Source: a virus | Taxonomy: Duplodnaviria; Heunggongvirae; Uroviricota; Caudoviricetes | IMG/VR virus record: IMGVR_UViG_3300030339_000005 | DNA length: 64,000 nucleotides | Direction: 5' to 3' (one strand) | Part shown: positions 3,176 to 46,011 of the stretch, piece after piece | How the letters are laid out: every line of letters begins with the position of its first letter | How positions within the stretch are numbered: the first letter of the stretch is position 1 | Translations under genes and position numbers: made by a program | Notes under the pieces: model-generated | Told to the model about the DNA's origin: nothing | Seen by the model: the letters and a program-made list of their open reading frames with translations, nothing else | Databases searched by the model: none

Positions 3176-4606
3176 TTAAACTTCTTCAATAATAAATGAT
3201 TTGTAAGGTGCAAATGCAGCAATACCAGAATAACCAGCTACGATCAATTTAGATCCTGCTACTGGGCTAGATACGATACCACTTGTGATACCATCTACTC
3301 CACCAACACCTGGGTATTTAGAAGTAACGAATTCAGCTCCTTGAAGAGTGAATGCAGCAATTGCTGGTTGATTTGTAGAAATATCCGGAGACATGTCTAA
3401 GCAAATACCATAACCTTTTCTATCGTATTCTTTTGTAAGAGCACGATCCACCATGAAAGTAACCATATTACCGGCAATTTCATAAGATGTAAATGTTCCA
3501 CCAACTTTAATAGGATTATCAGCTTTAACCATTGATTGCGTAGCTTTTGAATACATAACCGTTGGAGTTGATCCCCATAATTTTAACCAGTCACCCAGTG
3601 TTGAGTTAATTTGACCCCATAATCTATCATTTACGATAAATGTATAGCTATTACCTGTAGCATTTGCAGCTTTTTGGTTCATTTGATCAATAACTGTGTT
3701 GATTACATTTACGTTAAGTTTAGCGTATTTGTATTTAGAAGCAAATCTTTCGATTTGAGGAATAAGACCATCACCAGCAATCAAAGGACGTCCATCTTCA
3801 GTTAGAACTGTTGATTTACCATTAATATCCATGGTTGATTTACCTCATAATAGGTGATTGTTTTTAACTGTATTAAAGTTTTCTAACAAATCTTTTTCCA
3901 TTTTATTTAATTTGAAAATCTTTTCTTTAAGTTCGCCTGCGCCATCGCCTTCAGCAATTTTAATGAATTGATCTTCCATCTGAGCGTAACGAGCAGAATA
4001 AGAAATGTCATTTCTATGTTCTGTAATCCACTGACGATGTTTTTCAATGTTAGATTGATATTTTGTATATCCTTCTTCATGGTATTCAGGCATGATATTT
4101 GACAAGAATCTTGTCGTCATTCCTAATTGACATGCTGTTGAGTCTAATACTGAAGAGAAATCACTGTCAATTAATTGAGCAGTATATTCCCAGAAGTTAT
4201 CTGCTTTTCTGGTTGGGGTTGCTTTTACAATGCATTGCTGACGTGAGCCATCAATTTTGAAAGTATCATATTTTTCATAATATCTTTCTTTAAAATACAT
4301 TGTGATATCTGCTCCTCCTGCGCCATTACCCGTAGGTGCGGCTGCAAATTCGATTCTTTTAACGAATTCAACATCAATTTCCCATTCGATCATGAGAGAA
4401 TTAATTGGTTGAAATTTGTTAGCAGTTTTCGAGTTATAATAAATGTTCATTAAGGCTTCTGTTAAGAAGGTCGCTGTATTATGTGTATACATGCGAGCCA
4501 TAACTCCCATTAATTTAGGTCTTGTGCCTAAAAGTTTGTAGAAATCTTCATAAGTTCTACTATGAGCCAATTCAGGCTTTACGTTAACGTAACTTGCTAC
4601 TACCAT
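3176..4606 (-). CDS. putative major capsid protein, about 476 aa, one in-frame TGA at 3845-3847
   Basis: ORFs 3176-3832 and 3845-4606 same frame 12 nt apart; size and position after scaffold-like gene; no homology search done. Confidence 0.45.
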
Positions 4607-22875: not shown

Positions 22876-23464
22876 TACAATTACATTGAAGGTTATTAAC
22901 TAAATCATTAAAATTTCCACAGATTTGTAGATTATGAACTAAAATATTTGCTGTATTTCATTGAGAGTTTAATACAAGTGTATCTATAACATAAATTCCC
23001 ATCATTAATGTATTATTAATTAAACTTAAGGATTTATCAATTGAACAACCACTAATATTCTTAGCAATTGTCTTTTTAATAGTATTATAGTTTCTAACTA
23101 TATTATATTTATGAATTATGAATCTTTCTTCAACATCATTAGCAAAACTAGTTTGACTAAAGTCCATGTTTAATAAATCTACAGCTGTATACTCAGTAGA
23201 ATCATTATATTGTAATATTACATTATTATGAATATAAAACACACCTGATTCAGTAGGAGTTATAGTAGGTAATTTAATTGATACAATATAATATAAACTA
23301 TCTGCATTTAACGTAAAGGTTGATGTAGAGTTAATTATATTACTGTCAACTAATGAGGCAGTTGAAAAATCTACTTTAACTACAGTATGTAAATATGCAA
23401 AACCATTACTAATTGGATTTGCGACTGTAATTACTTTGCTGGTATCAGATTGTGTAATAGTCAT
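22868..23464 (-). CDS. hypothetical structural protein, about 198 aa, TGA at 22958; ends TAG 22868
   Basis: ORF 22958-23464 frame continues to TAG at 22868-22870. Confidence 0.5.
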
Positions 23465-23468
23465 AAAC

Positions 23469-23969
23469 TTAATTATAAAATTTTAATTCTCCAGTTGTAA
23501 ATAATACTGCTTCTGATTTTCTTCTATACACTAATCCAGTCAATGGAATTCCACCACCTGTTACATAGTGAGTAGTTCACCAATCATATAACTGTGGTGA
23601 GCTAGAATTAATTAATGAGAATAGAGTTGCACTTCCACCAGTATTATAAATAAAAGAGGCTAATGCTGCAATCTGATTATCATTTAATTTTACTTTAATC
23701 TTTCTTTGGATAATTGCTAGAATTGGATTCATATCAACTTCTAATTGATGATTAGCTTCATCTAATGTGTGAATAATGGATAATTGATATGCTAGAACTT
23801 TATTTTTTGGTCCCTTTACAAACTGTTTATCTGAATCTAATATTGCATGACCCCATCCCTCAGTTCATATCCCTATGGGATCCATTTTAGGTTGTAAACC
23901 TATTTCATGTAAATCTCCATCATGAAGGGATTCATAATGAGAGATTAGTTTTATAAGATTATTTATCAT
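23469..23969 (-). CDS. endolysin, GH24 phage-lysozyme-like, 166 aa, TGA-recoded
   Basis: Hand translation MINNLIKLISHYESLHDGDLHEIGLQPKMDPIGI[TGA]TEGWGHAIL... matches the E/D/T and G-x-W-T-I-G-x-G-H pattern of phage lysozymes; not in ORF track due to TGAs. Confidence 0.6.
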
Positions 23970-24205
23970 TATTGTTTTGTAATTTGAGCTGATAATCCAA
24001 TTGCATAACAAGCAGCAATAGCGTATCCAGCAATTGTAAATATAATTGCAGGAACTCCTAAAGCAACTAATCCAAATGTAGCATTTGCAGTTACTAAGGC
24101 TACTCCAATTGTTCCCAAAGATACAGAAATATTACGAACTTTTTTTCAAAAGATAGGACTTTCTGCATTTCAGCGTTCTACTAATTCTAAAAATAGTTTT
24201 TTCAT
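23969..24205 (-). CDS. holin-like small membrane protein, 78 aa, two in-frame TGA
   Basis: Hand translation MKKLFLELVER[W]NAESPIF[W]KKVRNISVSLGTIGVALVTANATFGLVALGVPAIIFTIAGYAIAACYAIGL...; two hydrophobic helices; stop overlaps lysozyme ATG (TAATG). Confidence 0.45.
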
Positions 24206-24232
24206 TGTTTTATATATTATTTATTAAATTAA

Positions 24233-26683
24233 TTACTTTGTGGCTATTTGTCTTGAACCTATTGTATCTGATTGATAATGTACTCCAATAGAGTGTACAA
24301 ACGCATTACCTGTAAAAGCATCTCCCGTTGGTCTACTTAAAGCGAATACGCAAATATCCCCAATCTTCTTTCCAGTTCCTACAATAACTGAAGCAGCATT
24401 TGCTAATTGATGTGTACCAATGACTCCACTTCCAGCTTGAGAAATAGCCATTGATGTTGAAGTTGGAAAAACTGCATTTACATTAGTTATACTATATTCA
24501 AAAGTAAAATCACAACTTCCAGTATTAGTTGACTCTGGAGATCAGTGTAAATGTACATGTAGATCAGTTCCCTCTTTATATCCATGGGGTAATTCAAAGG
24601 ATCCATAAACAGTTTCTGTAGATGCGTTTTCAAATAAAACACCATAGATTCCATTTTTAAAGATAGCCATTGGAGGAACAGTTGCTCCACCACGTAAATT
24701 TGCCGCATGAATTATAATATCATTTCAAACAACTGTATCTAAAACCATAGTTTTTTCTGCACCTGTTGTAACATATAAATCCGTTGGTGCTGCAGCATTA
24801 GTTTTTATATTTGGAGTATTGATAATATGAGAATAAACAGCAGAGAATTGTTTTGATACACTTCCCATTGGTATTAAATTATCAAATGGGGGTAGTAGAT
24901 CATCTCTTGTATATTTAGATTCTGAAAATGTCTCAGATGAATAATCATCATTCATTATTACTGCATTAATAATGCCATTTCCATTCATATTTTTACTACC
25001 ATAATTATTTGTATCAATATGACTCTTAACAATTTGTCCTTGAGTTATATCAAACATATTATATGCAAATAAATCGCTATAATAAACACTATTTAGAGTA
25101 CAAGTAGCAATACTTCCACGAATATTGTTTCCATATAGAGAGCCATTATCAATAGTAGAATTGTATAATTTAGATGGTAATATACCATTTAAAAGAAAGT
25201 TATTTCCAATAATTGATGCTGTATTTGTTAAACTAATATTATAAATTATACCATACCCAATATTATTTAAAATAGAATAAGTTCCGCCACCAAATTCAGT
25301 ATCAATTATTACATTATAAAGACGTTCTAAATTATTATTTTCAAATTTACAATATCCTTCCGCATTTAAGTTTCAATCATTATATTCAACCAAGAATCCA
25401 TCACTAGGAACAGCGGCTTCACCAAGAGAGTTTCCCTTATTATCCCATTGTCTTGAGACATAACCATAAGTTCCTTGAGTAATATCATAAGTGCAATTAA
25501 AAATTTTATCTACATATCAATTAGTAGATGTATTAAGTAAAGTTCACTCAGTTGAATTTAGTGTTCAGGTATTAGTGGCATTTAAAGTATTGGTATTGCC
25601 TTTAGCTTCTCATAATCTTCCGCCCCAAATAGTCAGTGCGCCAGCAAATACAGTAGTATTTTTAACTCATACTCCAATAGAACTAGTCATTATTGGAGTT
25701 CCACTAACTGTTCCATAGGATCCCTTCATATATGTATATGGAACACGTCCAATACGTAATCCATTCGTAAAGAAACTAGTTGTAGTTGCTGCTTGAATAA
25801 TAATTCCACTGTCGTTGGGACGTCCCATAATTTTATATAATCGACCAGGTCTTAATGTTCCACCATTAGCAGCAGTTTTTGCATCACTTACTGTAATATT
25901 AACAATTGATGGCATAACTAAAGTTGATGTTCAAGTAAATGCAGGTTCTGTAACAGTTCCTTTAATCATATATAATCCTGAATCTTGTAGTTGTAAACCA
26001 CCTTCTCCAAAGTTAACATAATATCCTGGGATTGTTGTTAAATAAAAGCAATTTTTTACTGAAGTTGGCACTGTAGTTGGAGTTGCCATACCAATAAATG
26101 TATAGCCAGCGGTATCAGCTAAGACTCCTAAGTTATTAAGAAAGGATGCTTTATAAAAATCAGAAACAGGATTTTGATATGAAAGATATGTACTTAAATC
26201 ATCTCCTACTCAAGTTCAATTACTTCAGGTATTATTTTCAACATCAACTAAATTACGCATATAAATTTTACCAGTCTCAATATACTGAATTTGAATTGAT
26301 CCAGTAGTTTCTATTAAGTTACTAAATACAATTAATTTTAAATTTATTGTGTTATTTAGAGTAGTTTCTAAAGTGCCTTCATATAACCCAGATTCAGTTA
26401 AGTTATCTAAGGACTCAATAGTAAGTAATCCAACTAATTTAGCATTAACTAATGAATTAATATTAATTCTTGCTTGTCTTTTTTCATTTGATGTAAAAAT
26501 TTGATTTTCGTTAACTCCTACTTTCTTATCTAAAATTTCTGTAGTATTTGTTAAATCATCAACAACATCAATAATATCATTAATTTTACTAACAATAGCA
26601 TTTACTTCTGTTGAAGTTAAGCCGTATTCTGTATTAGGTAATGATTGTCTAGATCTTTTTTCTGTTATATTTAATGTTTCCAT
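24233..26683 (-). CDS. tailspike/tail fiber with right-handed beta-helix-like repeats, about 816 aa, about 15 in-frame TGA; ends TAA
   Basis: ORFs 24233-24451, 24725-25057, 25667-25915, 26225-26683 same frame; gaps scanned open except TGA. Confidence 0.55.
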
Positions 26684-26685
26684 TC

Positions 26686-28908
26686 TTATTCATTTTTAAT
26701 TTCATCATTACGAGGATTAGTATCAAGTAATTGAATAGCCTCTAACTGAACACGTTTCTTTTCCCACTCTAATTTTTCTTCATTATATTTACTTTCATCC
26801 TTAGCTTTAAATCATTCTAATTCTTTAGTAAATTGAAGACGATCTTGCTCTAATTTAATTTTCTCTTGATTTAAGAATTCAACTTGTTGTTTAAGTTTTT
26901 GAGCTTCAGAAGATACTTGTTGAAGTTGTTGATTTAATTGTTGAGCTTGTTGTTGTAATTTATTTAATTGATCATCCTCTTTCTTTTTCTTCTCAATAGA
27001 TGTTTTAACATCTTCTTTCATTTTTGTTAAGCCAGTTGCAGTAACGATTTCTATCAATGTTACTGGATCAATTAAATTATTCTTTGTTAACTCCATACCT
27101 AGTTGCTTAATAATTTCTTGTTCCTTAATTACTTCAGAACTATCAGAAATATTAATATCATAATCAGTTACTGAGTAATGTTCGGGAAGTGCTGTAAAGA
27201 TTTTATTTAATTTTTCACCTAAAACTAAAGTTCCAGAAATACCATTTTTATAGACACTCTTAGTTAAATTTAATATATCTAAAAGAATTTCTCGTGTTAA
27301 TAAGTCCATTACTTGATAATATTGTTTTGTAATATATCCAGATTGACGAACTCCTACTTGAACATTTGTAACAGCATCTTTTTGTTCAATTCCACCAAGT
27401 TTTTCTTTAAACACACCTGTAATCATAGAACAAGTTTCTTCATTTCTTTGAATAGCTAGATCAATAGCTTGAATAGTTTCTAATTTAATCGTATCATCAT
27501 AACCATTAAAAGAAGTGTTTCCCATAGGTAATCCTTCTTGAGAGGAATCAAATAATGCAATTCCAGATTTCTTATAAGCTTTTCACTTCATAAGTCTGTC
27601 TGCAGTTGTAGCTCCTAAAAATATAGGAAGATGAGCAACATCTAATCAATCTCCAGTTCCACCGGATTCAGAAATAACGTTATCTCTATAAAAATAAAGA
27701 ACATCATTCTTATCTTGTAAATTAGCAGTCTTTAAAATTAATGAATATGGATCTCCATTTCTATCTGAATAGAATAGACCATTTACAGATAGATCACATT
27801 CATATGGACTATCCATACTACGAATTGGATTCTCAATTTTACCTGTTGTAATATAAATTAAAGTTCCTATACGAGTCCCTTCATATCTATTAACTACTCA
27901 GTTATCTCCCTCTTTTTCAGTTTTTAATCACTCTACATCATAGACTGGAAACAATCTAAAATATTTGGATGTATTGCGTTCAAATGGCAATAGAGGAGTT
28001 ATTTCAAATCCACCTAGAATACCATCTGATATGGTATTTCCAGTTGTACTATCATAACTTCTCAAATATGTAGTTGTTGATCCATCAACAGAATAGTCTT
28101 GTAAATTTTCAAGCTCAGCTAAGTCCTCTCTTTTAAGATCTTTTCCATATTTAGCTAAGATCTGATCTTTAGTCATATAACGACGAATAACAGATCTATA
28201 AGACTTTTTAAGGTATGGTGACTCAGGATTTCTATCAATAAAAGTATTAATTGGATTAAGTACTTCTAATTCAATGTTAGTGTTACTTGGTGAAGCAAAG
28301 ACTTTATAATAACTTGTTCCACTAATTAATAGATCAGTTAATAATAATTTTCTTTTATTACTAAAGTCTACTGCTCTTGATTGCATTGTTCAATCGGTAA
28401 TATTTTGTCCAGCAATCTCATAATCTGAAATAAAATTTCTCTCAGTAGATTGTTGTAATTCATCTAATTTAGATCCAACTTCTGCATTTGGGCCAGCTGG
28501 TCCAGGAGTTCCTGGGCCTTGTTGATCATTAATAGCACTATATAATGTAGTTTTTAGATGGCGATTTAATTCAGCAGCCATTACATTATTTACTTGGATT
28601 TGTCTATCCTTAAAGATACTTGATAATGTTTCTTTATCTTTACAAGACACTCTAGGAAGAACAGGTGTTGATAAGTATTCACCAATTAATACATCAATAT
28701 GTTTTCTAGTAAGAGGAACAAATTCTACTGAAGTAGGAGTTCCAATTCCATAATTTTCTTCCAGATGTCTAAATTGTTCTGGATCTCGTTTACCATGATA
28801 ATAATTATATGCCTTAATGATTTGAGTCTTTTCATAGACTAATTCATTAATTGCTCTATCAATATTTTCAATGATTTCTTGTTCTGTATTATTCTTCTTT
28901 TGAGTCAT
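26686..28908 (-). CDS. portal protein (putative), about 740 aa, in-frame TGA at 28390, 27928, 26812 and others; ends TAA 26686
   Basis: ORFs 28390-28908, 27928-28386, 26812-27525 same frame; frame followed to TAA; size and position next to terminase. Confidence 0.5.
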
Positions 28909-29161
28909 TTGTTCTAATTACTTTATAAATGTCTAGTCTCATATAATTTCTACTTCGTAATTCTGCATATATGAAATCTAAAAACTCTTCGTCTGTTTCA
29001 CAGTCAATATTTAAAGTAGTTGGTGTCATATAACTTGGAATACCAATAGAAAATTTATATCCAGGATTTAATTTTTCTACAGTTAATAAGCCAATATAAT
29101 CAGCTTTATACCAAGTCTTTATATATTCACGAATCGTCTGAATTAATTCTTGTTCTTGCAT
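28889..29161 (-). CDS. hypothetical protein, 90 aa
   Basis: ORF track; ends TAA. Confidence 0.45.
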   Translation of the reverse strand: MQEQELIQTIREYIKTWYKADYIGLLTVEKLNPGYKFSIGIPSYMTPTTLNIDCETDEEFLDFIYAELRSRNYMRLDIYKVIRTNDSKEE

Positions 29162-31193
29162 CTCGTTCTTCTATTGTTTTTGGTATTATACCATAATGTT
29201 TATAACCTTTACTATCTTTATATCAACCTATGTCTTCGAATTTTTTACCAATTGGTTCTCTTGCAACAGGTTTCCTAACTGATAATTCTTCATCACCTAA
29301 TTCCGCCATACCCATTGCTGCTACAATATCAAACTCTTTTTTCTTTTCATCAGAATATTCTAGCAACTGTTCTACAATTTCTCTATAAGCAATTGTATAA
29401 CAATAATCTAAACAAAAATCGTAAATTAATTCTCGATAATGATCAATAACTTTAGGACTTGTTGGAGCTCCATACATATTTGCATTACCTTTTGTAACGT
29501 CAGACATTGTAGATCTCGGCCTTTTCATTAATAAATGAAGTAATTTTTGATCTCTAAAGTGAGTTAAGATAGCAGTTCTCGAAGATTCTAATACTGCTTG
29601 GCAGCCATAATGAGTTAACATCTTTGCAGCTATCTCATAAGCCTCTCTAGGATCTCTTGGTCTATCTTTATATAGTGCAACATAACATGGATCTGAAGTT
29701 CCAAATACCCTTTTCTTAATTACTATACAAAATTGTGATGGCTTTTTATCAGTTCCAGTAGAGTCTGCAGTTCCTATATCAATGGAGTCAATGCCACCAA
29801 CATATAAATTTCTATAAGATGTTTCTGCTTCTGAGACTAATGGTTGTTCTAATATAAGAATCTTTCCATTCTCATCATCTCGAACTCACTTTGTTCCAAT
29901 AATTTGATCGTGTTGATCTCGAGTTCAAATTAAATGTCCTCTAATAGGTACTGGAACATTTTTATAAATATCAATTCGAGCGGCTTGTTCTGCTAATTCT
30001 TCACGAGGAAACATATTATCACCTTGTTGAATTAAAGCCTCTTCAATTGTAAAACAATATTCAGCTTTATAAATTAATAATCCCTTAGGATCTTCAGCCT
30101 TTAATCGTCTTTGATATTCATAATATTCTTTAGCTTTCTGTGGATCGCACCATCCGCGCTTATCAAGTAAACTAATTACCATTCGATAAGCTGGAATAAA
30201 CATTGCAGTTTCTATTGTGCGACCATCAGGAGTATAATTATGTCTATAACGTAATACATTATATGCATCAGGCTTAGTAACAATATCTTTAATACCTTCA
30301 AGTGCTGGACCTTCGTCTCCTCCAGTTCCTCATACAATTCTAGTTCCTACACGCTCTCCTCCTAATACAGTTATTAAAGCTTCTCCTTGTAGATATTTTT
30401 TCTTTAAAACTTTATCAGATCCTGCTTCTTCAAAGAATAATCGTTCAACACGGTCACCTCTAATTTTTTCTGGAGAATCGGCAATTACACCCTCAATTTC
30501 TGACATATGTCCCATCTCAACTCCATCTCGTGTTTTTACAGAAGCTCTCTTATGACTATTTGTATTAATAACCATACGAACTCTTTTAAATGCACCTTCA
30601 GTTTCTTCATTTAAATAATCAAGTTGAAGCCAAATTTTTGTTAGCAATGGTTTAAGATGTTTTTCAGAATAGGCTGACGCAAGCACACGATAGTTTGGCG
30701 TCGTTACAAATGGTCGAGCACATAATTCTGCTGCCATTTCCGAAAAGCCCAAGGCACGAGCCTTAACGAGTGCTACATCTTTTCCCAAATATTCACATAA
30801 TTCAACATAATGAAAATATTCATATTGAAAAACTAAGAACATTGGGAAGCTAATCTTTCTACCAGCTGACGCTTTAGCTCCTTCAACAGATGATTTTAAT
30901 CTATAGAAATTTAATCAAAAATAATTATCACCAGTAATTCTATAACCATTGATAGTTAACCCTTCAGTACATCGTTTAAATCTTTCTTTTCAAAATTCGA
31001 TGTATCCTCGAGAACCATAAACAGTTTTACTATATTTACCTGTTTTAACTTTAGTAATTGCATCTTCACGAAACAAATCAGGATCAAAATCAAGTCCTTG
31101 AGATTCGTTTATAGGTCTATAACCAGTTATTTCATATGATAGTGTAGGATCAAAACATTCAATCGAATCACCCAATTTTATATCTCAGTCCAT
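29106..31193 (-). CDS. terL: terminase large subunit, about 695 aa, TGA-recoded (TGA at 31185, 30990, 30330, 29925, 29223); ends TAA 29106
   Basis: Five ORF-track fragments in one frame; merged sequence has ATPase-then-nuclease order typical of TerL; ATG 31191-31193 overlaps upstream stop. Confidence 0.6.
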
Positions 31194-31195
31194 AA

Positions 31196-31789
31196 TTAAA
31201 ATCTTATTTGACCTTGATCAAAGAATCCTGCTTCAGTACCACCACGTAATCCACTATCAGGTTCTAATTCTTTTTTAACTTGAGTTTCTAATTCATTTAA
31301 ACTAGCAACAAGTTCTTTAGCATTTTTAATATTACTAATTAAATCCTTAGAACTAAAAATTGGTTTCCCAGTTACAGCATCTCGTTCATTAATATCAACC
31401 GTCTCAAAGTAAAAAATTAATTTTTCTACCGCTGACATACATGCTCTAAGCATTCTAATATTAATACCTCCATTTTGTATAGATTCATACATTCTGCAAG
31501 CACTTTTAAATTCTGGATCTTCAAATTCTTCGTCTGTTAATCCAGAATTCTCCAGTGAACGTTGATGCCTATCTTGTTCAGGCTCATTAAAGAATGGACT
31601 TTCCCAATCAAAGAAAAGGAAAATGTATGCAAATTCTTTGTAAGCTCTTATTTTATTTTTTCCTAATGGATCGGCTGTACATTTATTACGTTGCTCATTC
31701 ATTAATATAGCAAATTCCTTAACAAGAAGAATTCCTTCTCTATTAATTACTACTTGCTCATTTACATTATCATATATAAAAAATTTCAT
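31196..31789 (-). CDS. hypothetical protein, 197 aa; possible small terminase subunit by position only
   Basis: ORF track; immediately upstream of terL. Confidence 0.35.
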   Translation of the reverse strand: MKFFIYDNVNEQVVINREGILLVKEFAILMNEQRNKCTADPLGKNKIRAYKEFAYIFLFFDWESPFFNEPEQDRHQRSLENSGLTDEEFEDPEFKSACRMYESIQNGGINIRMLRACMSAVEKLIFYFETVDINERDAVTGKPIFSSKDLISNIKNAKELVASLNELETQVKKELEPDSGLRGGTEAGFFDQGQIRF

Positions 31790-31824
31790 ATTTGTTGTAT
31801 TAAATTAACTATTAATTTTGTATC

Positions 31825-33387
31825 TTATTTTTTAAGTCTATTTTTAACTTTACCACCACATTTATCAACGCTTGGATTTGGTTTATTAATATCTCCACCA
31901 GATTGTTTCTTCTTCATCTTAGCTTTTACTTTACCACCACATTTAAATTCTTGTGGCCAAGTATTTAATTGATTTGCTAATACATTTGGAATTTGTACTT
32001 GTGGAGTATTTATTCTAGGTGTTGACATCAGAACATTTGGATTAATAGGTCTAGTATCATTATAAGTAACCATTCTTGAAATTGGGGGAGCAACTAAAGC
32101 TGTTGCAGGATTTGCTTGAGCATTATTCGTAAGCATCGCTTGTCTAGTTTGTGCCCCAATAATTCCATCAGCTGTTAATCCATGTGCTTGTTGAAAAGCA
32201 ATAATTCCAGCTTTAGTATTTTTTCCATAAATACCATCAGTCTTACCTGTATTATAGCCTAAATTATTTAATGTTTGTTGGTCCTGTTTTAACTTAGCAT
32301 CTACAGCAATTCTATTAACAACTGGCTTTGTATTCGTTGTTGCTTTTGGTGCAACTGTTTTAGTAGTTGGTTTATTAACTACAGGAGTTGTTTTATTTGA
32401 TGTTGATGTAGTTGATGTAGTTGATGCAACTCTATTTGGAACAGTTTTATTACTTGGAGTTGATTGTGTTGGTTGTGTTGATTGTCCTGGCTTAGTAGTT
32501 GACTTAATAACTGGCTTAGAAGTAGGTGCAGTTTTAGTTGAAGTTGGGGCTGAATTTGATTTTTGTGTAGGAGCCTGAGGAGCCTGAGGGGCTGGTCTTT
32601 GAACGCCAGGTCCAAAAGTAGGTGCTGTAGATGCTCCTGGTCTAGCAGTTCCTTTAGCAGTTACAACTGTATCAGGTAATGTTACATTATTAACAGTAGT
32701 TGGACGCATAGGAGATCTAACACCAGTAACGGCCATGGGTGGTTTATATGGATTAAAAGGAGCTACACTATCAAATTGTCTTGCAACCTGTACATTTGGT
32801 TTAGAAGGTCCTTGAGGTATATGATTTTGATGTTGTGGAGTAGCAGCAACAATTGATGGTGTAAACATACGTTCAATTAATGGACGATGTTCAGCACGTA
32901 ATCTTTGTGATTCTGCATTACTTCTATCTATAAATCCTTGTGGAGCTTGAGCACCATCTTTAGCTTTTAGAACTAATCCACCATTTTCTTTTTTAGCCAC
33001 TTTCTTTTTAACTTTACCTCCGCCACAATTACAAGCACATCTTTCCTCCATTTTACCACCAACTTTTCTTGATAGGATGTCACATCCACAAGCACATTTC
33101 TTTGACTTTGGTTTTGCTTTTAGTTTCTTTAACTTTGCACCTTTGGCAGCAAATTGTGCAGTAGCTTGTTGTGTTTGAGCTGTATATTGCTCATCTAATT
33201 TGTTCCAGTCGTCGTCAGATAAATTATCTGCTGCAGCTGAGATTGCATTAATATCATCTTCGTTAGACTGGATTAAGCTTGTCCATTCTTCGATAGAAGA
33301 TGTGTTGCCATACTTCTCTGGATCCATTTGTTGTGAATATATATAAGCAAAGTATGGAAATAATTCTTGTTTCTTTGTGTCGTCCAT
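31825..33387 (-). CDS. peptidoglycan-binding-domain protein with Pro/Thr-rich linker and repeated Cys-Gly-Gly-Lys motifs, 520 aa
   Basis: GIYGKNTKAGIIAFQQAHGLTADGIIGAQTRQAM resembles the PG_binding_1 repeat; several CGGKVK motifs; no in-frame TGA. Confidence 0.5.
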   Translation of the reverse strand: MDDTKKQELFPYFAYIYSQQMDPEKYGNTSSIEEWTSLIQSNEDDINAISAAADNLSDDDWNKLDEQYTAQTQQATAQFAAKGAKLKKLKAKPKSKKCACGCDILSRKVGGKMEERCACNCGGGKVKKKVAKKENGGLVLKAKDGAQAPQGFIDRSNAESQRLRAEHRPLIERMFTPSIVAATPQHQNHIPQGPSKPNVQVARQFDSVAPFNPYKPPMAVTGVRSPMRPTTVNNVTLPDTVVTAKGTARPGASTAPTFGPGVQRPAPQAPQAPTQKSNSAPTSTKTAPTSKPVIKSTTKPGQSTQPTQSTPSNKTVPNRVASTTSTTSTSNKTTPVVNKPTTKTVAPKATTNTKPVVNRIAVDAKLKQDQQTLNNLGYNTGKTDGIYGKNTKAGIIAFQQAHGLTADGIIGAQTRQAMLTNNAQANPATALVAPPISRMVTYNDTRPINPNVLMSTPRINTPQVQIPNVLANQLNTWPQEFKCGGKVKAKMKKKQSGGDINKPNPSVDKCGGKVKNRLKK

Positions 33388-33400
33388 TTTTTAAGAAAAA

Positions 33401-33625
33401 TTAAAGTTTTATTAAATCTTTTGTATTGAAGATACTTTCTTGAAGTTCTCCGTTTGCTGTGAATCATTTACATAGAATGCCTTGAAAGTAATCATTCTTT
33501 ACATCTTGAGTTCGAATAGTTTTAGTAACTTTACGAACTACCAACATTGTTGGTTTATTAGGAAGTTCTTGTCTTAGAGTCACAACGTCTCCAGGTAAGA
33601 AAAATTGTTTTGTGTCATTAATCAT
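33401..33625 (-). CDS. hypothetical small protein, 74 aa, one in-frame TGA at 33464-33466
   Basis: Hand translation MINDTKQFFLPGDVVTLRQ...GILCK[W]FTANGELQESIFNTKDLIKL; not in ORF track. Confidence 0.4.
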
Positions 33626-33679
33626 ATTTTATTATTTTGCATTTCGGTTATAAAAAATAACCATTCGTTTGTATACATA

Positions 33680-34231
33680 TTATTCCATATTTAAACGTTC
33701 TTTTAATTTGTCATTTAAGAAACATAGAATTTGTGGTTCACTAGTTAGGATATACCCAAGAGACATAAAGGGAATTGGATAAACTGTTCGTGTATCATAG
33801 AATACATCATCATTTGGTTTAACAAATTTACAATCAGGCCCTACTTCAATAACTTTAGCACAAGCTACAAGTTCTTTTAAGTTATCATTCTCTCCAGAAT
33901 CGGGATTTAAGAATTGTCCTTTATACTCTCCAATAAATAAGCCACCTTGCGATAAGGTTTTCTTATATGGATTAGAAGGATAGGGAAGTAAGATAACTTT
34001 ATTACCCATTGGTAACATCTCTAGAGTTTGAATTCTTGCTTCTAATTCTTTTTGTTTTTCTAATTCTAGTTCGTATTTTAATTTACGTGCCTCTTCTTTA
34101 ACCTTATTATCTTTCTCTAGTTCTAATTCTAATTTCTCTTTTGCAAAAGGTTCAGCCATTTGAATTAAATTCTTACCCATAAAATAACTTCCATTTGCTT
34201 CATTTAAAGTCTTATCCATAATCATTATCAT
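33680..34231 (-). CDS. hypothetical protein, 183 aa, coiled-coil N-terminal half
   Basis: ORF track. Confidence 0.4.
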   Translation of the reverse strand: MIMIMDKTLNEANGSYFMGKNLIQMAEPFAKEKLELELEKDNKVKEEARKLKYELELEKQKELEARIQTLEMLPMGNKVILLPYPSNPYKKTLSQGGLFIGEYKGQFLNPDSGENDNLKELVACAKVIEVGPDCKFVKPNDDVFYDTRTVYPIPFMSLGYILTSEPQILCFLNDKLKERLNME

Positions 34232-34497
34232 TTATTTATTATACATTTTTCTTCATCTACTCTAGTCTTACTTCCTAATACACATCCACATCCTTGAATA
34301 AATCCAGGTTGTTCAATTCTAGAAACATTTCCATCTTTATTTATATATTTAGATGCATCACACATCTCTCCTCATAATTTATCTACTTTATGTAAAGGAC
34401 ATTCTCGACAAATCGTTATACGACTTTTATAAAGTTCATCTTTTTTATTTAGTAGATTATTATAAAAGCCTTCTGCTATTTGAGTAATAGAAGACAT
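34225..34497 (-). CDS. small Cys-rich (CxxC...CxC) zinc-ribbon-like protein, about 90 aa, TGA-recoded
   Basis: Hand translation MSSITQIAEGFYNNLLNKKDELYKSRITICRECPLHKVDKL[W]GEMCDASKYINKDGNVSRIEQPGFIQGCGCVLGS... Confidence 0.4.
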
Positions 34498-34931
34498 GCT
34501 CCAACAAAGCCTACTACTGTACCTCCACCAAGCCAAGCTGGCCATAAGGACGCACGTTTTTTATATTTTATCTTTAGATTAGTTTCTTTTTCTATTCTAG
34601 CATCAGCTTTTTTTAGTTCTGATTTTTGAAAAGTAACAGCATCTTCTGCTATCTTTACAGATTCATCTCTATTCTTAACTTGAATTCTTAAATTGCCAAT
34701 TTCTTTAGATTGTGCTTCAATAGATTCTTGTCCAACATAATATAATTGTGAAGTTTCTTCAAGATTAGTGATATAAATTCTTAAGTCCATTAACTCTTGC
34801 TTAGTAAATGTATATACTATTGTTGTATCTTTTCCATCTGTACTAATTTTCCAAGTTATTGATGATTGAGTCCAACCATTTAGCGTGGTTAGCAGCAGAA
34901 GCATCATGGATAATATTAATTTCTTGATCAT
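34476..34931 (-). CDS. secreted or membrane protein, 151 aa, N-terminal signal and C-terminal TM helix; spanin-like by architecture
   Basis: MIKKLILSMMLLLLTTLNG... and C-terminal LWPAWLGGGTVVGFVGACLLLLK. Confidence 0.4.
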   Translation of the reverse strand: MIKKLILSMMLLLLTTLNGWTQSSITWKISTDGKDTTIVYTFTKQELMDLRIYITNLEETSQLYYVGQESIEAQSKEIGNLRIQVKNRDESVKIAEDAVTFQKSELKKADARIEKETNLKIKYKKRASLWPAWLGGGTVVGFVGACLLLLK

Positions 34932-35205
34932 GCTTAATAAGTATTTGTTGTTTAACTTTTTCTAATGAATCTAATTTGACTTCTAAAGTCTTTTGTTCCA
35001 ATTTTAACTCAGTATAAATACTATCTTTATCATGAATTTGCTTCATGTATAATTGAATAATTAAGTCCCTATCACTACGATATTCAATATCTTTATGATT
35101 AATTATATATGCTGTTCCACCTATAACTAATAGTAGACCTACCATATGTAATCCAAGTTTAGAACGTAATTTTTTCCCTAATTCTTTTAAATTCATCATA
35201 TTCAA
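34843..35205 (-). CDS. membrane protein, N-terminal TM helix plus coiled coil, 120 aa; overlaps 34476-34931 in another frame
   Basis: LGLHMVGLLLVIGGTAYII followed by coiled-coil-rich sequence. Confidence 0.4.
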   Translation of the reverse strand: MNMMNLKELGKKLRSKLGLHMVGLLLVIGGTAYIINHKDIEYRSDRDLIIQLYMKQIHDKDSIYTELKLEQKTLEVKLDSLEKVKQQILIKHDQEINIIHDASAANHAKWLDSIINNLEN

Positions 35206-36091
35206 TTTGTTTTCTATAAAATGTTAACATTCTCTCAACGTCATTCTTTAAATACTCACATTCATATGTTGTACATCCACCATCGTGATCATAGTGTACA
35301 AGAATTAATTCTTTAATAGTAACTCCTGGGAATTGTTTTTCAATCATCCAAGCATAAGTAGATAATTGTAAACTGTAATGCCAAAAGTTAGTATCTTGTA
35401 AGTTGTTTAAAGGATACTTCATCATTTGAGACTTCTTAGTTTTTCTATCAAAATAAGAAGCCTTTTTAATTTCTTTATTTGTTTTATAATCTAAAATATA
35501 AACATCAGTTCCATCAATAATAACTAAGTCTGCTTGACCTGCAATTCTTAAAACTCTATCTTCTGATACTCGAGATAATAATAATTCAGGATATACTCCT
35601 TGTTCTCCTAAGCATATTTGATTCGTTAATCTTGGAGTAAATTTTCCACCCAATCCAAGATGTTGTAATTCTTTAGTATTACCAGCCATATGTTCCAATT
35701 CTTGAAGTCTATGGATTGCTGTCCCTCGCATACAAGAAGCCTCACGTTTGGAGGCCCACTCTTGAAGAATTTCTGCCCTAGCTTCATTAAACTCATCCTC
35801 AGTTACAGCAACTTCATCTAAGTATTTTAAATGAAATCTTTTTGTATTTAATAAGGCAGGTTTAATATTTATAAAAGCGTCAGGTACTAAAGACTCTAAT
35901 GCTTTGTAAGCTGACCAAAACTCTTCGTCAAATGTTGTAAATTGATGTATTAAAGTTGTTACTGAGATACAAGGTTCTCTGGAACTCTTTGTCCAGTATT
36001 TATGCATTTTATCATTATAACTAACAGCTGAATTTTCTTTATCAATTTCTAATTCACCATAGTTAATTTCATTTTCATTTATCATTATCAT
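35159..36091 (-). CDS. PD-(D/E)XK-family nuclease (exonuclease or Cas4-like), 310 aa
   Basis: Motif AGQADLVIIDGTDVYILDYKT (D...D-x-K) and C-terminal Cys pair. Confidence 0.5.
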   Translation of the reverse strand: MIMINENEINYGELEIDKENSAVSYNDKMHKYWTKSSREPCISVTTLIHQFTTFDEEFWSAYKALESLVPDAFINIKPALLNTKRFHLKYLDEVAVTEDEFNEARAEILQEWASKREASCMRGTAIHRLQELEHMAGNTKELQHLGLGGKFTPRLTNQICLGEQGVYPELLLSRVSEDRVLRIAGQADLVIIDGTDVYILDYKTNKEIKKASYFDRKTKKSQMMKYPLNNLQDTNFWHYSLQLSTYAWMIEKQFPGVTIKELILVHYDHDGGCTTYECEYLKNDVERMLTFYRKQIEYDEFKRIREKITF

Positions 36092-36095
36092 TATT

Positions 36096-36788
36096 TTAAT
36101 TTACAAGTTCTTCCCAATTTTCTAAACAAAGAAGTCCACTAATTTTTTGAGATGCTTCAGCGATATTAGCTATTACATCATCTACACTAAATATGTGCCC
36201 TTCTTTAACTGTTAACAATAGAACTCCTAATAATTGATCCACTCCATAAATAGCATAAAATACTGCCGATCCACAAGTATGTTGTTTTAATAAGTTATAA
36301 ATAGCTGGAAAAGTAAGTCTAATATCTTCTGAATGCCCAATATAAATATAACCAATATTTTCAACTTCCAGTAAAAAATCTGCAAAGAGAGATACATTAA
36401 CTCGTTGATATGCATATGCTATGCTTGTTGAGCCAACTGCAAAACATTCACATGTAGCATTTACAAATAAAAAAGGTAAGCCTGCTAAATTTGAACTGCC
36501 GTTTGAAAATTCAAAAAGTATAGCTCTATTAATCTTTGTATTCACAATTAAATCAGAAAGAGTTCGTGATACTTCGGCAGCTATATTTTTTCTTTTAAGA
36601 TTTGCTTTAACATGTTCTTGGGCTTGTTGTGTTTCTCGTCTATCTATATACTTCTCAATTAAAGTCGGAGACGCTTTAATAAGAGTATGTATTCCAAAGA
36701 AGACGCCTCCTAATAATAAGCACGCGATTGCAGTAGTCATTCCATAAGTTTCAGCAATCTGTTTAAAAAAAGTAAGTAGGTGTTCCAT
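36096..36788 (-). CDS. membrane-anchored protein, 230 aa
   Basis: N-terminal hydrophobic segment TAIACLLLGGVFFGIHTLI. Confidence 0.4.
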   Translation of the reverse strand: MEHLLTFFKQIAETYGMTTAIACLLLGGVFFGIHTLIKASPTLIEKYIDRRETQQAQEHVKANLKRKNIAAEVSRTLSDLIVNTKINRAILFEFSNGSSNLAGLPFLFVNATCECFAVGSTSIAYAYQRVNVSLFADFLLEVENIGYIYIGHSEDIRLTFPAIYNLLKQHTCGSAVFYAIYGVDQLLGVLLLTVKEGHIFSVDDVIANIAEASQKISGLLCLENWEELVN

Positions 36789-36964
36789 TAATTGTCGTTG
36801 GTTTAAAGTGAGTACACTATTTATTATTTATACAAAGGTATTAATAAATTTTACAACAAAAATAAGATTCAATAAAAATCTTAAACAGAATTAATCTCGT
36901 TATTGTCATTGAAATTTTTTTGCATATTAACAAAAAAGGAGGCAAATTAATTGCCTCCTCACTT

Positions 36965-37657
36965 TTATATTTGGTGTTCTCGTAAAACTGCTAAAATATC
37001 TTTAATAATTGGATTCCTAACACTATCACTATCTTCAAATTCTACTACTGAAACTACAGAACTATCTTGAAAAATCTTTGCAACTTTTAATAAACAAGAT
37101 TCTTCAATTTTTTTTCTATCTACTTGTTCAGTATCACCTAGAAAAATAAATTTACAATTACTTCCGATACGAGTAATTAAAGATTTAAATGTATGGGTAT
37201 CTATGTTCTGCGTTTCATCAACAATTACTATACAATCGTCTTGTGTAACTCCACGTACATAAGCTATAGGGAGAATATCTATCAGACCTTTCTTAATAAA
37301 GTCATTTGATACACCTTTTTTGGCAAATAATTTATCTATGTTACCTGTAAAAGAAACAATATAAGGTTCCATTTTTTCTTCCATAGATCCTGGAAGATAA
37401 CCAATGTTTTCACCTGTAATAGTTTGGACTGATTTTACAATTACAATACGTTTATACTTGTTTCCAAGTAATCCAAATGCTGTTCCTAAAGCACAATACG
37501 TTTTTCCCGTACCTGCTGGACCTGTGCAGATTGTTATTTCGCTGCTAGTAATAGCATCACGAAACTCTTCTTGTTTGTCGTTCAGACAGTGAAACCTGTG
37601 TAAATTCTGAACTTGTTCGTCTGGGACTCGTCCCTTTTCTTTGCCTTCTTTTCTCAT
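36965..37657 (-). CDS. phoH: PhoH-like ATPase, 230 aa
   Basis: Walker A ICTGPAGTGKTYCALG, Walker B IVIVDETQN, typical PhoH length. Confidence 0.7.
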   Translation of the reverse strand: MRKEGKEKGRVPDEQVQNLHRFHCLNDKQEEFRDAITSSEITICTGPAGTGKTYCALGTAFGLLGNKYKRIVIVKSVQTITGENIGYLPGSMEEKMEPYIVSFTGNIDKLFAKKGVSNDFIKKGLIDILPIAYVRGVTQDDCIVIVDETQNIDTHTFKSLITRIGSNCKFIFLGDTEQVDRKKIEESCLLKVAKIFQDSSVVSVVEFEDSDSVRNPIIKDILAVLREHQI

Positions 37658-37817: not shown

Positions 37818-37913
37818 TGGCACGGGTATCAGGACTCGAACCCGAATAATGAAGTTTGGACCTCCACGTGTGGTTTTGAAGACCACTTCTATTCCCAATA
37901 GGAAAGTACCCGC
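37818..37913 (-). tRNA. suppressor tRNA reading UGA (anticodon UCA); long variable arm, G73 discriminator, encoded CCA, irregular D-arm
   Basis: Minus strand GCGGGTA...GTGGT-CTTCAAA-ACCAC...TGGAG-GTCCAAA-CTTCA...TCGGG-TTCGAGT-CCTGA-TACCCGT-G-CCA; 7-bp acceptor, 5-bp anticodon stem with loop CUUCAAA, canonical T-arm. Confidence 0.6.
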
Positions 37914-44207: not shown

Positions 44208-44286
44208 AATTTGGGCATTAAGAGGATACACCCTTCGGGGTGTATCTCTCTCTTAAAAAATAGTATATTCACTAAAGCTTATTAGT

Positions 44287-45239: not shown

Positions 45240-45241
45240 CC

Positions 45242-45788: not shown

Positions 45789-46011
45789 TCTCGTTTGAAC
45801 GCACGGAAACGTTATAACGAGAGTCTGCTTCCCCATGACTGGCAGGCAACAATGATAGATGAGTGTATCGACTCAACGGCACATTTCCGAAAACATAAAC
45901 ATTTTCTTACCTCAATATCTATTTGTACATTTGAACGATGAACAAAAGGGCCACTCATCGCGTTGTGAAACGCGGTGAGTTTTCCAATTCACTAAACAAT
46001 AATACTCTACA

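What the first reader, a model, noticed from the sequence alone, without database searches (positions are those of the whole stretch)
23469..23969. TGA falls on conserved Trp positions of an embedded GH24-type endolysin
The unannotated minus-strand gene translates to a phage-lysozyme-like protein. Its first TGA lies in the conserved G-x-W-T-I-G-x-G-H motif (here G-I-[TGA]-T-E-G-W-G-H), where Trp is common in this family. The second lies in a D-W-[TGA] aromatic patch. This is direct sequence-level evidence that TGA means Trp rather than stop or Ser. It also shows lysis genes are under the recoding regime.
Basis: partly seen in the sequence, partly recalled or inferred. Interest (0 to 1): 0.55.

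Follow-up and report, generated by a model that had tools for sequence, protein, structure and literature searches.

The report
Recoded TGA-Trp codons in phage endolysin

Summary
Window 23969..23469 (-) is a 166-codon ATG..TAA gene with in-frame TGA at codons 35 and 131. It matches Pfam PF00959 (E 2.3e-17). An AlphaFold model (pLDDT 91.5) has the GH24/T4-lysozyme fold.

- **Codon 35:** this column is Trp in 120/120 homologues. It is TGG in 42/42 loci from bacterial genome assemblies, and only TGG or TGA in related phages. It precedes the invariant Thr that aligns with the catalytic Thr26 of T4 lysozyme.
- **Codon 131:** this column is aromatic and only partly conserved (W 89, F 23, I 7, M 1).
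- **Other genes:** across 28 TGA sites in 13 window genes, a likelihood test gives Trp lnL -48.5, Tyr -92, Gly -160 and Ser -186.
- **Lysis genes:** the overlapping 78-aa holin-like gene also has two TGAs.
- **Blocks:** the late block has 87 TGA to 29 TGG. The block upstream has 1 to 14. Other genes end in TGA.

A tRNA(UCA) heads the late-strand genes. The window matches a 178-kb contig with a Crassvirus capsid and terminase. TGA-to-Trp recoding of late and lysis genes is already published for such phages, so this is a new member of a known kind. The one unusual item is the suppressor tRNA, which has a long variable arm and fails Rfam's tRNA threshold.

The parts
23469..23969 (-). GH24 (PF00959) endolysin gene, 166 codons, ATG..TAA, with 2 in-frame TGA and 2 TGG
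   Evidence: PF00959, E 2.3e-17. (AF2 pLDDT 91.5). (Foldseek PDB top hits are phage endolysins 9kbq, 8app and 6et6, then P22 and T4 lysozyme). An identical 166-aa protein is already in the public protein collection (P0001).
23865..23867 (-). TGA codon 35, on an invariant Trp that precedes the invariant Thr36 (aligns with T4L Tyr25-Thr26)
   Evidence: W in 120/120 homologues. TGG in 42/42 loci from bacterial genome assemblies, and TGG or TGA only in viral loci. The hhalign motif alignment to T4 lysozyme pairs D30/W35/T36 with D20/Y25/T26. The residue lies in strand 34-37 of the model.
23577..23579 (-). TGA codon 131, on a partly conserved aromatic column (W/F) next to the near-invariant W130
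   Evidence: W 89, F 23, I 7, M 1 of 120. W, F, Y, I and others in more distant loci. The residue lies in helix 127-133 of the model.
23969..24205 (-). 78-aa holin-like gene. Its TAA overlaps the endolysin ATG (TAATG). TGA lies at codons 12 (24172-24170) and 20 (24148-24146). About 50 hydrophobic residues form the C-terminal two thirds.
   Evidence: hydropathy. Relatives have W or TGA at site 12, and F, TGA or W at site 20. No PHROG family matched, so 'holin' is inferred from size, hydrophobicity and position.
37818..37913 (-). tRNA with anticodon UCA (reads UGA): 96 nt, 7/5 cloverleaf, about 24-nt variable arm, G73, encoded CCA. It lies at the head of the late-strand genes, directly upstream of PhoH.
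   Evidence: ARAGORN. Rfam best match is tRNA-Sec at 38 bits, below the gathering score of 47, and nothing passes gathering. Relatives carry a tRNA(UCA) upstream of PhoH, directly so in about half of them, with the same anticodon loop CTTCAAA and G73.
29106..31193 (-). Terminase large subunit, 695 aa, 8 in-frame TGA
   Evidence: phrog_6681, E 3e-63. All 8 TGA columns are W-dominant in 120 homologues (W 77-119; the rest mostly F or Y). 27 of the 83 sequences in the terminase alignment are TGA-free.
26686..28908 (-). Portal protein, 740 aa, 6 in-frame TGA
   Evidence: phrog_6547, E 3e-50. TGA sites align to W or Y in relatives.
3176..4606 (-). Major capsid protein of crAss type, 1 in-frame TGA aligned to TGG in 11/11 relatives
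   Evidence: PF23898 Crass_capsid, 44.8 bits against a cut-off of 27. Site 254.
31196..37657 (-). TGA-poor block between the tRNA and the terminase (PhoH, exonuclease, a PG_binding_1 protein and others): 1 TGA against 14 TGG
   Evidence: The late block (1082-31193) has 87 TGA against 29 TGG.

Best explanation
The window is part of a roughly 178-kb crAss-like phage genome whose late genes are written in a code-4-like dialect, with UGA meaning Trp. These late genes include terminase, portal, capsid, tail and giant proteins, and a holin-like plus GH24 endolysin pair.

The endolysin cannot be made under the standard code. Termination at codon 35 leaves a 34-residue peptide without the invariant Thr36, and the holin-like gene stops at codon 12. 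A phage tRNA with anticodon UCA is encoded at the head of the same strand. It lies upstream of a nearly TGA-free block that precedes the TGA-rich genes.

Once this tRNA is made and charged with Trp, UGA is read through and the structural and lysis proteins appear. The charging enzyme is most likely the host TrpRS, which recognises the anticodon and G73.

**Shown here:**
- the gene, its fold and its conserved residues;
- TGA on Trp or aromatic columns;
- TGA/TGG interchange among relatives;
- the block structure;
- the presence and conserved position of the tRNA.

**Inferred:**
- that this tRNA is the decoder;
- that it carries Trp;
- that the host uses the standard code;
- that recoding delays lysis.
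For: **The gene and its two TGA sites.**
- Gene structure and TGA positions.
- PF00959 match. GH24 fold.
- W35 is invariant (120/120) and is TGG in 42/42 loci from bacterial genome assemblies, while related phages alternate TGG and TGA at that column.

**Other genes.**
- All 8 terminase TGA columns are W-dominant.
- Using queries masked with X at TGA against 202 related loci, 28 sites could be aligned. The majority residue is W at 16, Y at 4, F at 4 and N, L or R at one each; one site has only TGA in relatives. It is never S, G or C.
- Log-likelihoods: W -48.5, Y -92.2, R -146.1, G -160.0, C -162.7, S -185.9.
- Counting TGA as Trp gives 1.17% Trp in the late block. Without it the figure is 0.29%.

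**Blocks.**
- 87 TGA to 29 TGG in 1082-31193, against 1 to 14 in 31196-37657.
- TGA is used as a stop, with ATGA start/stop overlaps, at 50009-50012, 50317-50320 and 56657-56660.

**The tRNA.**
- tRNA(UCA) at 37913-37818.
- 14 of the 24 tRNAs found in related loci also carry UCA. All lie upstream of PhoH on the late strand, directly upstream in about half.

**Lineage.** Crass_capsid Pfam match, and a terminase closest to crAss-like and Bacteroides or Flavobacterium phages.

**Literature describing the same pattern.** PMC7886860, bioRxiv 10.1101/2021.08.26.457843 and PMC12386605.
Against: - No direct evidence shows which amino acid is inserted. Conservation reflects selection, not chemistry.
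- The only UCA tRNA in the window is not Trp-like in shape. It has a long variable arm and an odd D arm, and its best Rfam match is tRNA-Sec. A long variable arm is the main recognition feature for SerRS.
- About 114 kb of the genome lies outside the window. I could read only a further 9.6 kb of it, and that stretch holds no tRNA. Another suppressor tRNA, a TrpRS or a release factor may lie in the rest.
- The second lysozyme site would tolerate Phe or Tyr.
- The host and its genetic code are not identified.
Confidence: 0.88

Rival explanations
1. UGA is read as Ser. The long-variable-arm tRNA(UCA) would be charged by SerRS, which ignores the anticodon. The TGAs would sit on Trp columns only because TGG-to-TGA is an easy mutation.
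For: The window's tRNA(UCA) has a roughly 24-nt variable arm and G73, and scores best against Rfam tRNA-Sec (38 bits). Relatives L141, L143 and L156 also carry long-arm UCA tRNAs.
Against: - Ser is among the worst-fitting amino acids (lnL -185.9 against -48.5 for Trp).
- None of the 28 sites has Ser as the majority residue, and P(W | query Ser) is 0.0002 in the same alignments.
- W35 is invariant and lies next to the invariant Thr36, which aligns with the catalytic Thr26 of T4 lysozyme.
- Relatives with Trp-like class I tRNAs and relatives with long-arm tRNAs place TGA on the same W/F/Y columns.
- The acceptor stem has C2-G71. The G2-C71 pair is used by E. coli SerRS (my knowledge, not tested here).
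Confidence: 0.04
2. TGA is a true stop. The lysozyme would be a decayed, fragmented pseudogene, or would be made only by rare leaky read-through.
For: Under table 11 the gene breaks into ORFs of 34, 95 and 35 codons.
Against: - Frame and homology run unbroken across both TGAs, with 55-75% identity to full-length homologues.
- The identical protein occurs on at least 24 contigs.
- TGAs occur at 87 in-frame positions of the late genes, including 8 in the terminase and 39 in a 4301-codon ORF. Leaky read-through could not serve these.
- A UCA tRNA is encoded nearby.
Confidence: 0.01
3. The whole system, host included, uses a TGA-sense code: code 4 as in Mycoplasma-like bacteria, or code 25 (TGA = Gly) as in Absconditabacteria. 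The phage would then simply mirror its host rather than recode late genes.
For: The late block has low GC (27-33%). Phages of code-25 hosts are known (Borges preprint).
Against: - Gly fits poorly (lnL -160.0).
- The block next to the tRNA avoids TGA (1 against 14 TGG), and other genes terminate in TGA with ATGA overlaps.
- The phage carries its own UCA tRNA.
- The capsid and terminase are crAss-type, and the closest cellular lysozymes are from Bacteroidota, namely Chryseobacterium, Flavobacterium and Bacteroidales. These use the standard code (established knowledge).
Confidence: 0.04
4. UGA is Trp, but the decoder is not the 96-nt tRNA. It would instead be a canonical Trp-like tRNA(UCA) elsewhere in the 178-kb genome, or a modified host tRNA-Trp. 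The long-arm tRNA would then have another role or be a relic.
For: - Zeta crAss-like genomes carry 4-34 tRNAs, usually about 20 or more (PMC12386605 Table 1), yet the window holds only two.
- The 96-nt tRNA fails Rfam's tRNA threshold.
- Most relatives use a class I tRNA.
Against: - The 96-nt tRNA occupies the same slot as the suppressors of relatives: 70-aa ORF, then tRNA, then PhoH.
- It shares their CTTCAAA anticodon loop and G73, and has a good T arm and an encoded CCA.
- The extra 9.6 kb fetched beyond the right end of the window holds no tRNA.
Confidence: 0.25

Closest known systems
TGA-to-Trp recoded gut phages (Borges et al., bioRxiv 10.1101/2021.08.26.457843, later Nat Microbiol 2022; Ivanova et al. 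2014)
   Same: In-frame TGA aligns with Trp. The TGAs are concentrated in structural and lysis genes and absent from neighbouring genes. A phage-encoded UCA suppressor tRNA is present. Close relatives switch between the standard and the recoded state; here 27 of the 83 sequences in the terminase alignment are TGA-free.
   Different: This genome is not one of their named examples as far as I could test. There was no megablast hit in GenBank phages. Its suppressor tRNA is non-canonical. No RF1 or TrpRS gene lies in the window.
Zeta-group crAss-like phages, e.g. phage Lera, 179,624 bp (PMC12386605; Yutin et al. 2021, PMC7886860)
   Same: - CrAss-type capsid and terminase.
- Genome size of 178 kb, within the 145-192 kb range.
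- GC of about 32%.
- Opal suppression of terminase and structural genes.
[quoted passage not shown]
   Different: Placement in the Zeta group was not tested phylogenetically. The nearest GenBank terminase is only 46% identical (MT835470). Lera's tRNA-SUP-TCA was typed as Trp or Arg by tRNAscan-SE, whereas the one here has a long variable arm.
T4 lysozyme, P22 lysozyme and the endolysins PHAb10 and AbLys1 (GH24, PF00959)
   Same: Same fold (Foldseek probability 1.0, TM 0.6-0.7). The motif D-x4-[aromatic]-T-x-G-x-G-H is shared: D30, W35 and T36 here correspond to D20, Y25 and T26 in T4L. PHAb10 (9kbq) and PHAb11 (9kbs) also have G-[VI]-W-T-I-G.
   Different: This protein belongs to a Bacteroidota-type subfamily (LHDGDL..GLQPKMDP.GIWTEGWG) that is only 19-29% identical to solved structures. 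Two of its four Trp residues are encoded by TGA.
Code 4 of Mycoplasma and Spiroplasma
   Same: UGA is read as Trp by a tRNA with anticodon UCA.
   Different: In those bacteria the whole organism uses the code and the tRNA is an ordinary class I tRNA-Trp. Here only part of a phage genome does, TGA still ends other genes, and the tRNA scaffold is different.

Membership tests
GH24 / PF00959 phage lysozyme | Sequence match to the family profile above the curated threshold | tested here: met
   63.9 bits against a cut-off of 22.3, E 2.3e-17, profile positions 8-125 of 125. phmmer hits to solved GH24 muramidases.
GH24 / PF00959 phage lysozyme | T4-lysozyme-like two-lobe fold | tested here: met
   AF2 pLDDT 91.5, pTM 0.86. 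Foldseek against the PDB: 34 hits with E <= 1e-3. The top hits are phage endolysins and T4, P22 and R21 lysozymes, all at probability 1.0.
GH24 / PF00959 phage lysozyme | Catalytic Glu, Asp and Thr (T4L E11, D20, T26) | tested here: met
   D30 and T36 align with T4L D20 and T26 (the motif alignment has low hhalign probability). T36 is invariant and D30 and E13 are nearly invariant in the subfamily. The equivalence of E13 to E11 is inferred from position, not from an alignment.
GH24 / PF00959 phage lysozyme | Muramidase activity | not testable with these tools
   Needs an enzyme assay.
Stop-codon-recoded phage, TGA to Trp (code 4 type) | In-frame TGAs in conserved essential genes that are intact under table 4 | tested here: met
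   Terminase 8, portal 6, capsid 1, endolysin 2. The late block has 87 TGA.
Stop-codon-recoded phage, TGA to Trp (code 4 type) | TGA positions align with Trp in standard-code homologues | tested here: met
   Trp is the maximum-likelihood assignment by more than 40 log units.
Stop-codon-recoded phage, TGA to Trp (code 4 type) | Phage-encoded suppressor tRNA with anticodon UCA | tested here: met
   37913-37818. Its position is conserved in relatives. Its charging identity was not tested.
Stop-codon-recoded phage, TGA to Trp (code 4 type) | Recoding confined to late genes, with other genes compatible with the standard code | tested here: met
   1 TGA to 14 TGG in 31196-37657. TGA stops with ATGA overlaps in the plus-strand block. 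The large plus-strand ORFs 58305-60047 and 60345-62672 have 0 TGA. Timing of expression was not tested.
Stop-codon-recoded phage, TGA to Trp (code 4 type) | Host uses the standard code | not testable with these tools
   Inferred from the crAss-like lineage and from Bacteroidota lysozyme homologues. No host link was obtained.
Crassvirales (crAss-like phages), possibly the Zeta group | CrAss-type major capsid protein and terminase | tested here: met
   PF23898 Crass_capsid, 44.8 bits against a cut-off of 27. The terminase hits crAss-like phages at 27-30% identity with E 1e-41 to 1e-54.
Crassvirales (crAss-like phages), possibly the Zeta group | Phylogenetic placement within the Zeta clade (genomes of 145-192 kb) | not tested
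   Only the contig length of 178,281 bp is consistent. No tree was built.
Canonical bacterial tRNA-Trp (class I) | Short variable loop and a standard D arm, detected by the general tRNA model | tested here: not met
   96 nt with a roughly 24-nt variable arm. No Rfam tRNA hit at the gathering score. The suppressors of relatives L131 and L166 score 63-67 bits.
Canonical bacterial tRNA-Trp (class I) | TrpRS identity elements: G73 and C35-A36 (my knowledge of E. coli and B. subtilis TrpRS) | tested here: met
   The discriminator is G and the anticodon loop is C-U-U-C-A-A-A, as in all 14 relatives' suppressors.
tRNA-Sec (RF01852) | 8/5 acceptor/T structure and a score above the family threshold | tested here: not met
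   7/5 structure. 38 bits against a gathering score of 47. 87 TGAs without any possible SECIS context, and Cys fits poorly (lnL -162.7).

The most novel reading that the evidence does not exclude
The decoder of UGA as Trp in this phage is the 96-nt tRNA(UCA), which has a long variable arm. Within one phage lineage, the same genomic slot upstream of PhoH holds interchangeable suppressor scaffolds: a Trp-like class I tRNA, a class II tRNA, and an 8/5 tRNA-Sec-like tRNA. They share only the CUUCAAA anticodon loop and G73, yet all support TGA on Trp or aromatic columns.

This would mean that TrpRS, or a phage factor, can charge very un-Trp-like tRNAs. It would also help explain why most TGA-recoded phages appear to lack a suppressor tRNA, because such tRNAs escape standard detection.
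Probability: 0.35. Interest if true: 0.55.

Novelty: new member of a known kind. Interest (0 to 1): 0.22.

Why it matters
**For annotation.** Table 11 breaks this endolysin, the holin-like gene, the terminase, the portal and a 4301-codon gene into fragments. The same genome has been called in code 4 by one public resource and in code 11 by another. Recognising the code is therefore needed to see the lysis cassette at all.

**For biology.** This adds one clean case to the published idea that recoded stop codons gate the production of lysis proteins until a phage suppressor tRNA is available. Here both members of the holin-like/endolysin pair are unmakeable under the standard code. It does not change what is known. 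Only the odd suppressor tRNA could lead to something new.

Tried and rejected
- **Relatives of the 96-nt tRNA.** I searched by exact or gapped patterns in IMG/VR and in JGI metagenome contigs. Nothing was found, so I could not test covariation for its fold.
- **PhoH-anchored loci in IMG/VR.** Only distant relatives (32-45% identity) came back. They were not useful.
- **Megablast of window 22000-30000 against GenBank phages.** No match.
- **PHROGs on ten late proteins.** Almost no families matched. The holin-like gene and the genes around the lysozyme remain unnamed.
- **Walking left of the window with a TGA-containing protein.** The right-hand extension (L205) holds no tRNA. I therefore could not check the rest of the genome for another suppressor, a TrpRS or RF1.
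- **Pfam on ten other window proteins (nine of the remaining large ORFs plus the capsid).** No release factor and no aminoacyl-tRNA synthetase.
- **Repeat search over the whole window.** Only internal repeats of the giant ORF were found. There was no DGR-like pair.
- **hhalign of the subfamily against T4 lysozyme.** The probability was low (20.6%), so I use only the motif register, which the fold search backs.
- **Rejected readings.** Selenocysteine, Gly (code 25), Ser, a pseudogene, and leaky read-through are dealt with under the rival explanations and the membership tests.

Full report
**1. The observation**

The minus-strand gene runs from ATG (23969-23967) to TAA (23471-23469) and has 166 codons. 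In-frame TGA lies at codon 35 (23867-23865) and codon 131 (23579-23577). TGG lies at codons 39 and 130. Under table 11 the gene falls into three short ORFs.

**2. What the gene is**

- With Trp at both TGAs, the protein matches Pfam PF00959 (Phage_lysozyme) at 63.9 bits against a cut-off of 22.3, E 2.3e-17.
- It matches solved GH24 muramidases by sequence (8b2s, 9kbq, 6h9d, 7m5i).
- An AlphaFold2 model built on 32 homologues has mean pLDDT 91.5. Its best PDB matches are phage endolysins (PHAb10 9kbq, AbLys1 8app, 6et6), followed by R21, P22, P1 and T4 lysozymes, all at Foldseek probability 1.0.
- A profile alignment to T4 lysozyme puts D30, W35 and T36 opposite D20, Y25 and T26. The overall probability is low, so I use only the motif register. 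D20 and T26 are catalytic residues of T4 lysozyme (established knowledge).
- So the first TGA encodes the aromatic residue just before the invariant Thr that aligns with the catalytic Thr26. In the model it lies in strand 34-37. Codon 131 lies in helix 127-133.
- There is no N-terminal hydrophobic segment.

Directly upstream is a 78-codon gene (24205-23969). Its TAA overlaps the lysozyme ATG (TAATG). It is hydrophobic from about residue 25 to 75 and itself has TGA at codons 12 and 20. No PHROG family matches it. From size, hydrophobicity and position I read it as the holin.

**3. Do the TGAs sit on Trp columns?**

Among the 120 best database homologues, column 35 is W in 120/120. Column 131 is W 89, F 23, I 7, M 1.

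Some of those proteins come from code-4 gene calls, so I went to the DNA.
- In 42/42 loci from bacterial genome assemblies, column 35 is TGG. The set includes cultured Chryseobacterium, Mesonia and Petrimonas isolates.
- 27 of the 42 have Y or F at column 39. They therefore cannot have been picked up through the W-containing search pattern.
- In 80 viral loci, column 35 is TGG (69) or TGA (11) and nothing else. Close relatives at 60-67% identity differ only in using TGG or TGA.
- Column 131 is W, F, Y, I or more variable in distant members.

Only 4 of the 166 columns are W-dominant. Two random codons would both land on such columns with a probability of about 4e-4.

**4. Is this general in the window?**

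- Under table 4 the minus-strand genes from 1082 to 31193 carry 87 in-frame TGA against 29 TGG. That gives 1.17% Trp if TGA is Trp, and 0.29% if it is not.
- These genes include the terminase large subunit (8 TGA), the portal (6 TGA), the crAss-type major capsid protein (1 TGA) and a 4301-codon ORF with 39 TGA.
- All 8 terminase TGA columns are W-dominant in 120 homologues. W ranges from 77 to 119 of 120, and the rest are mostly F or Y.
- I masked TGA as X in the queries so that it could not drive the alignment. I then aligned all window genes against 202 related loci.
- 28 TGA sites in 13 genes have aligned relatives. The majority unambiguous residue is W at 16, Y at 4, F at 4 and N, L or R at one each; one site has only TGA in relatives. 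It is never Ser, Gly or Cys.
- I took substitution frequencies from the same alignments and weighted each site equally. The log-likelihoods are W -48.5, Y -92.2, H -97.5, F -120.5, R -146.1, G -160.0, C -162.7 and S -185.9.
- The result is unchanged without the lysozyme (W -44.6).
- True TGG codons of the window align to W in 68% of cases, and TGA codons in 56%. For TGA codons, W, F and Y together make 89%.

**5. Block structure and the tRNA**

- The block 31196-37657 has 1 TGA against 14 TGG. It holds PhoH, an exonuclease, a PG_binding_1 protein and others.
- In the plus-strand region, large ORFs have no TGA. Several genes end in TGA with ATGA start/stop overlaps: 49713-50012/50009-50320/50317..., and 55824-56660/56657-57148.
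- So TGA is a stop in one part of the genome and a sense codon in another, as described for crAss-like phages with multiple codes.
- ARAGORN finds a tRNA with anticodon UCA at 37913-37818. It is on the late strand, directly upstream of PhoH.
- In related loci, 14 of 24 detected tRNAs also carry UCA. All 14 lie upstream of PhoH on the late strand, directly upstream in about half of the loci.
- The order on the strand is therefore: tRNA(UCA), a TGA-poor block, terminase and portal, then the holin-like and endolysin genes and the other structural genes.

**6. The odd suppressor tRNA**

- The window's tRNA is 96 nt. It has a 7/5 acceptor/T structure, a roughly 24-nt variable arm, an unusual D arm, G73 and an encoded CCA.
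- It does not reach any Rfam gathering score. Its best match is tRNA-Sec at 38 bits, below that family's threshold of 47.
- Eleven relatives carry ordinary 72-75-nt tRNAs. The two tested score 63-67 bits on the Rfam tRNA model.
- L156 carries a 93-nt long-arm tRNA (46.9 bits).
- L141 and L143 carry a 100-nt 8/5 tRNA-Sec-like tRNA that Rfam does not report.
- All 15 share the anticodon loop CTTCAAA and G73.
- Phages of both kinds place TGA on columns that are W, F or Y in TGA-free relatives.
- A long variable arm is what SerRS recognises.
- The codon data argue strongly against Ser.
- G73 plus C35-A36 are the main TrpRS identity elements in E. coli (my knowledge). Borges et al. also cite work showing that UGA suppressor tRNAs are tryptophanylated in E. 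coli.
- So charging with Trp is plausible but unproven.
- About 114 kb of the genome lies outside the window, and it may hold another suppressor. I could read 9.6 kb more on one side, and it has no tRNA.

**7. What the genome is**

- The window is identical (0 mismatches over 20.5 kb) to ENA contig ERZ27249210 k141_1798632, which is 178,281 bp.
- The endolysin protein is on record in 46 blocks of the assembly collection.
- The capsid matches Pfam Crass_capsid.
- The terminase is 27-30% identical to crAss-like phages. Its nearest GenBank phage is an unannotated human-faecal contig at 46%.
- Nothing in GenBank phages matches at the megablast level.
- Size and GC fit the Zeta group of crAss-like phages (145-192 kb; PMC7886860). 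I did not build a tree.

**8. Comparison with what is known**

- Yutin et al. 2021 (PMC7886860) report TGA-to-Trp and TAG-to-Gln reassignment 'mostly in late genes' of crAss-like phages, together with suppressor tRNAs.
- Borges et al. [quoted passage not shown] They report close relatives with different codes, and suppressor tRNAs detected in only 35% of TGA-recoded genomes. They propose that recoding regulates lysis.
- The metaproteomics paper I checked (PMC9523058) validated TAG-to-Gln. It mentions TGA-to-Trp only as a prediction.

The finding is therefore correct and well supported, but it is another member of a known kind.

**9. Mechanism**

*Shown:*
- the endolysin and the holin-like gene cannot be completed under the standard code;
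- TGA stands where Trp is required;
- a UCA tRNA is encoded upstream on the same strand, in a conserved position.

*Inferred:*
- the host terminates at UGA until the phage tRNA accumulates and is charged with Trp by host TrpRS;
- the late and lysis proteins are then made, which ties lysis to the late phase;
- suppression must be efficient, because 39 TGAs lie in one ORF. At 90% read-through per codon, only about 1.6% of ribosomes would finish that ORF. Some further measure against RF2 is therefore likely, but none was seen in the window.

**10. Verdict**

Novelty is low, as a new member of a known kind, and I score interest at about 0.2. The non-canonical suppressor tRNA and the scaffold swapping at its conserved position are the only parts worth following up.

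Noticed in passing
window 37818-37913 (-); L141 1555-1654; L143 3836-3935; L156 1005-1097; L131 1948-2020: The opal-suppressor tRNA lies upstream of PhoH in this phage lineage, directly upstream in about half of the loci. That position holds very different scaffolds: class I tRNAs of 72-75 nt, long-variable-arm tRNAs of 93-96 nt, and a 100-nt 8/5 tRNA-Sec-like tRNA. All have the loop CTTCAAA and G73. The window's copy and the L141 type escape Rfam's tRNA model.
   Followed up: partly
window 48785-48882 (+): A tRNA-like gene with good acceptor, D and T arms but an anticodon loop of about 29 nt. With introns allowed, ARAGORN calls it tRNA-Thr(GGT) carrying a 20-nt insertion in the anticodon loop. 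It has no Rfam match at gathering.
   Followed up: partly
window 49713-50538 and 55824-57148 (+): Genes here end in TGA with ATGA start/stop overlaps, so TGA is still a stop in this part of the genome. The same genome was gene-called with code 4 in the ENA assembly and with code 11 in a Logan assembly, which gives different protein lengths: 492 against 435 aa, and 287 against 278 aa.
   Followed up: partly
window 6073-18978 (-): A giant 4301-codon ORF with 39 in-frame TGA against 10 TGG. It has internal diverged repeats and a precomputed LRR_5 Pfam hit. It needs near-complete UGA suppression to be made.
   Followed up: no
window 1-44000 versus 44000-64000: Base composition steps from 26-35% GC to 34-43% GC at about 44 kb within one phage genome. 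The stretch 45.8-47.5 kb has no ORF of 90 aa or more in code 11.
   Followed up: no
window 31825-33387 (-): A 520-aa protein with a PG_binding_1 domain, long low-complexity Pro/Thr/Ser-rich stretches and no TGA. It sits in the TGA-poor block. It may be a second cell-wall-directed protein that can be made under the standard code.
   Followed up: no
window 33401-33625 (-): The only TGA-containing gene inside the otherwise TGA-free block (74 aa, TGA at codon 54). Relatives split almost evenly at that codon: TGA 33, TGG 32.
   Followed up: no
L205 12884-15450 (beyond the right end of the window): The phage contig encodes adenylosuccinate synthetase-like and IMPDH-like proteins, a NUDIX protein and a GSP_synth fragment. 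These are auxiliary nucleotide-metabolism genes.
   Followed up: no
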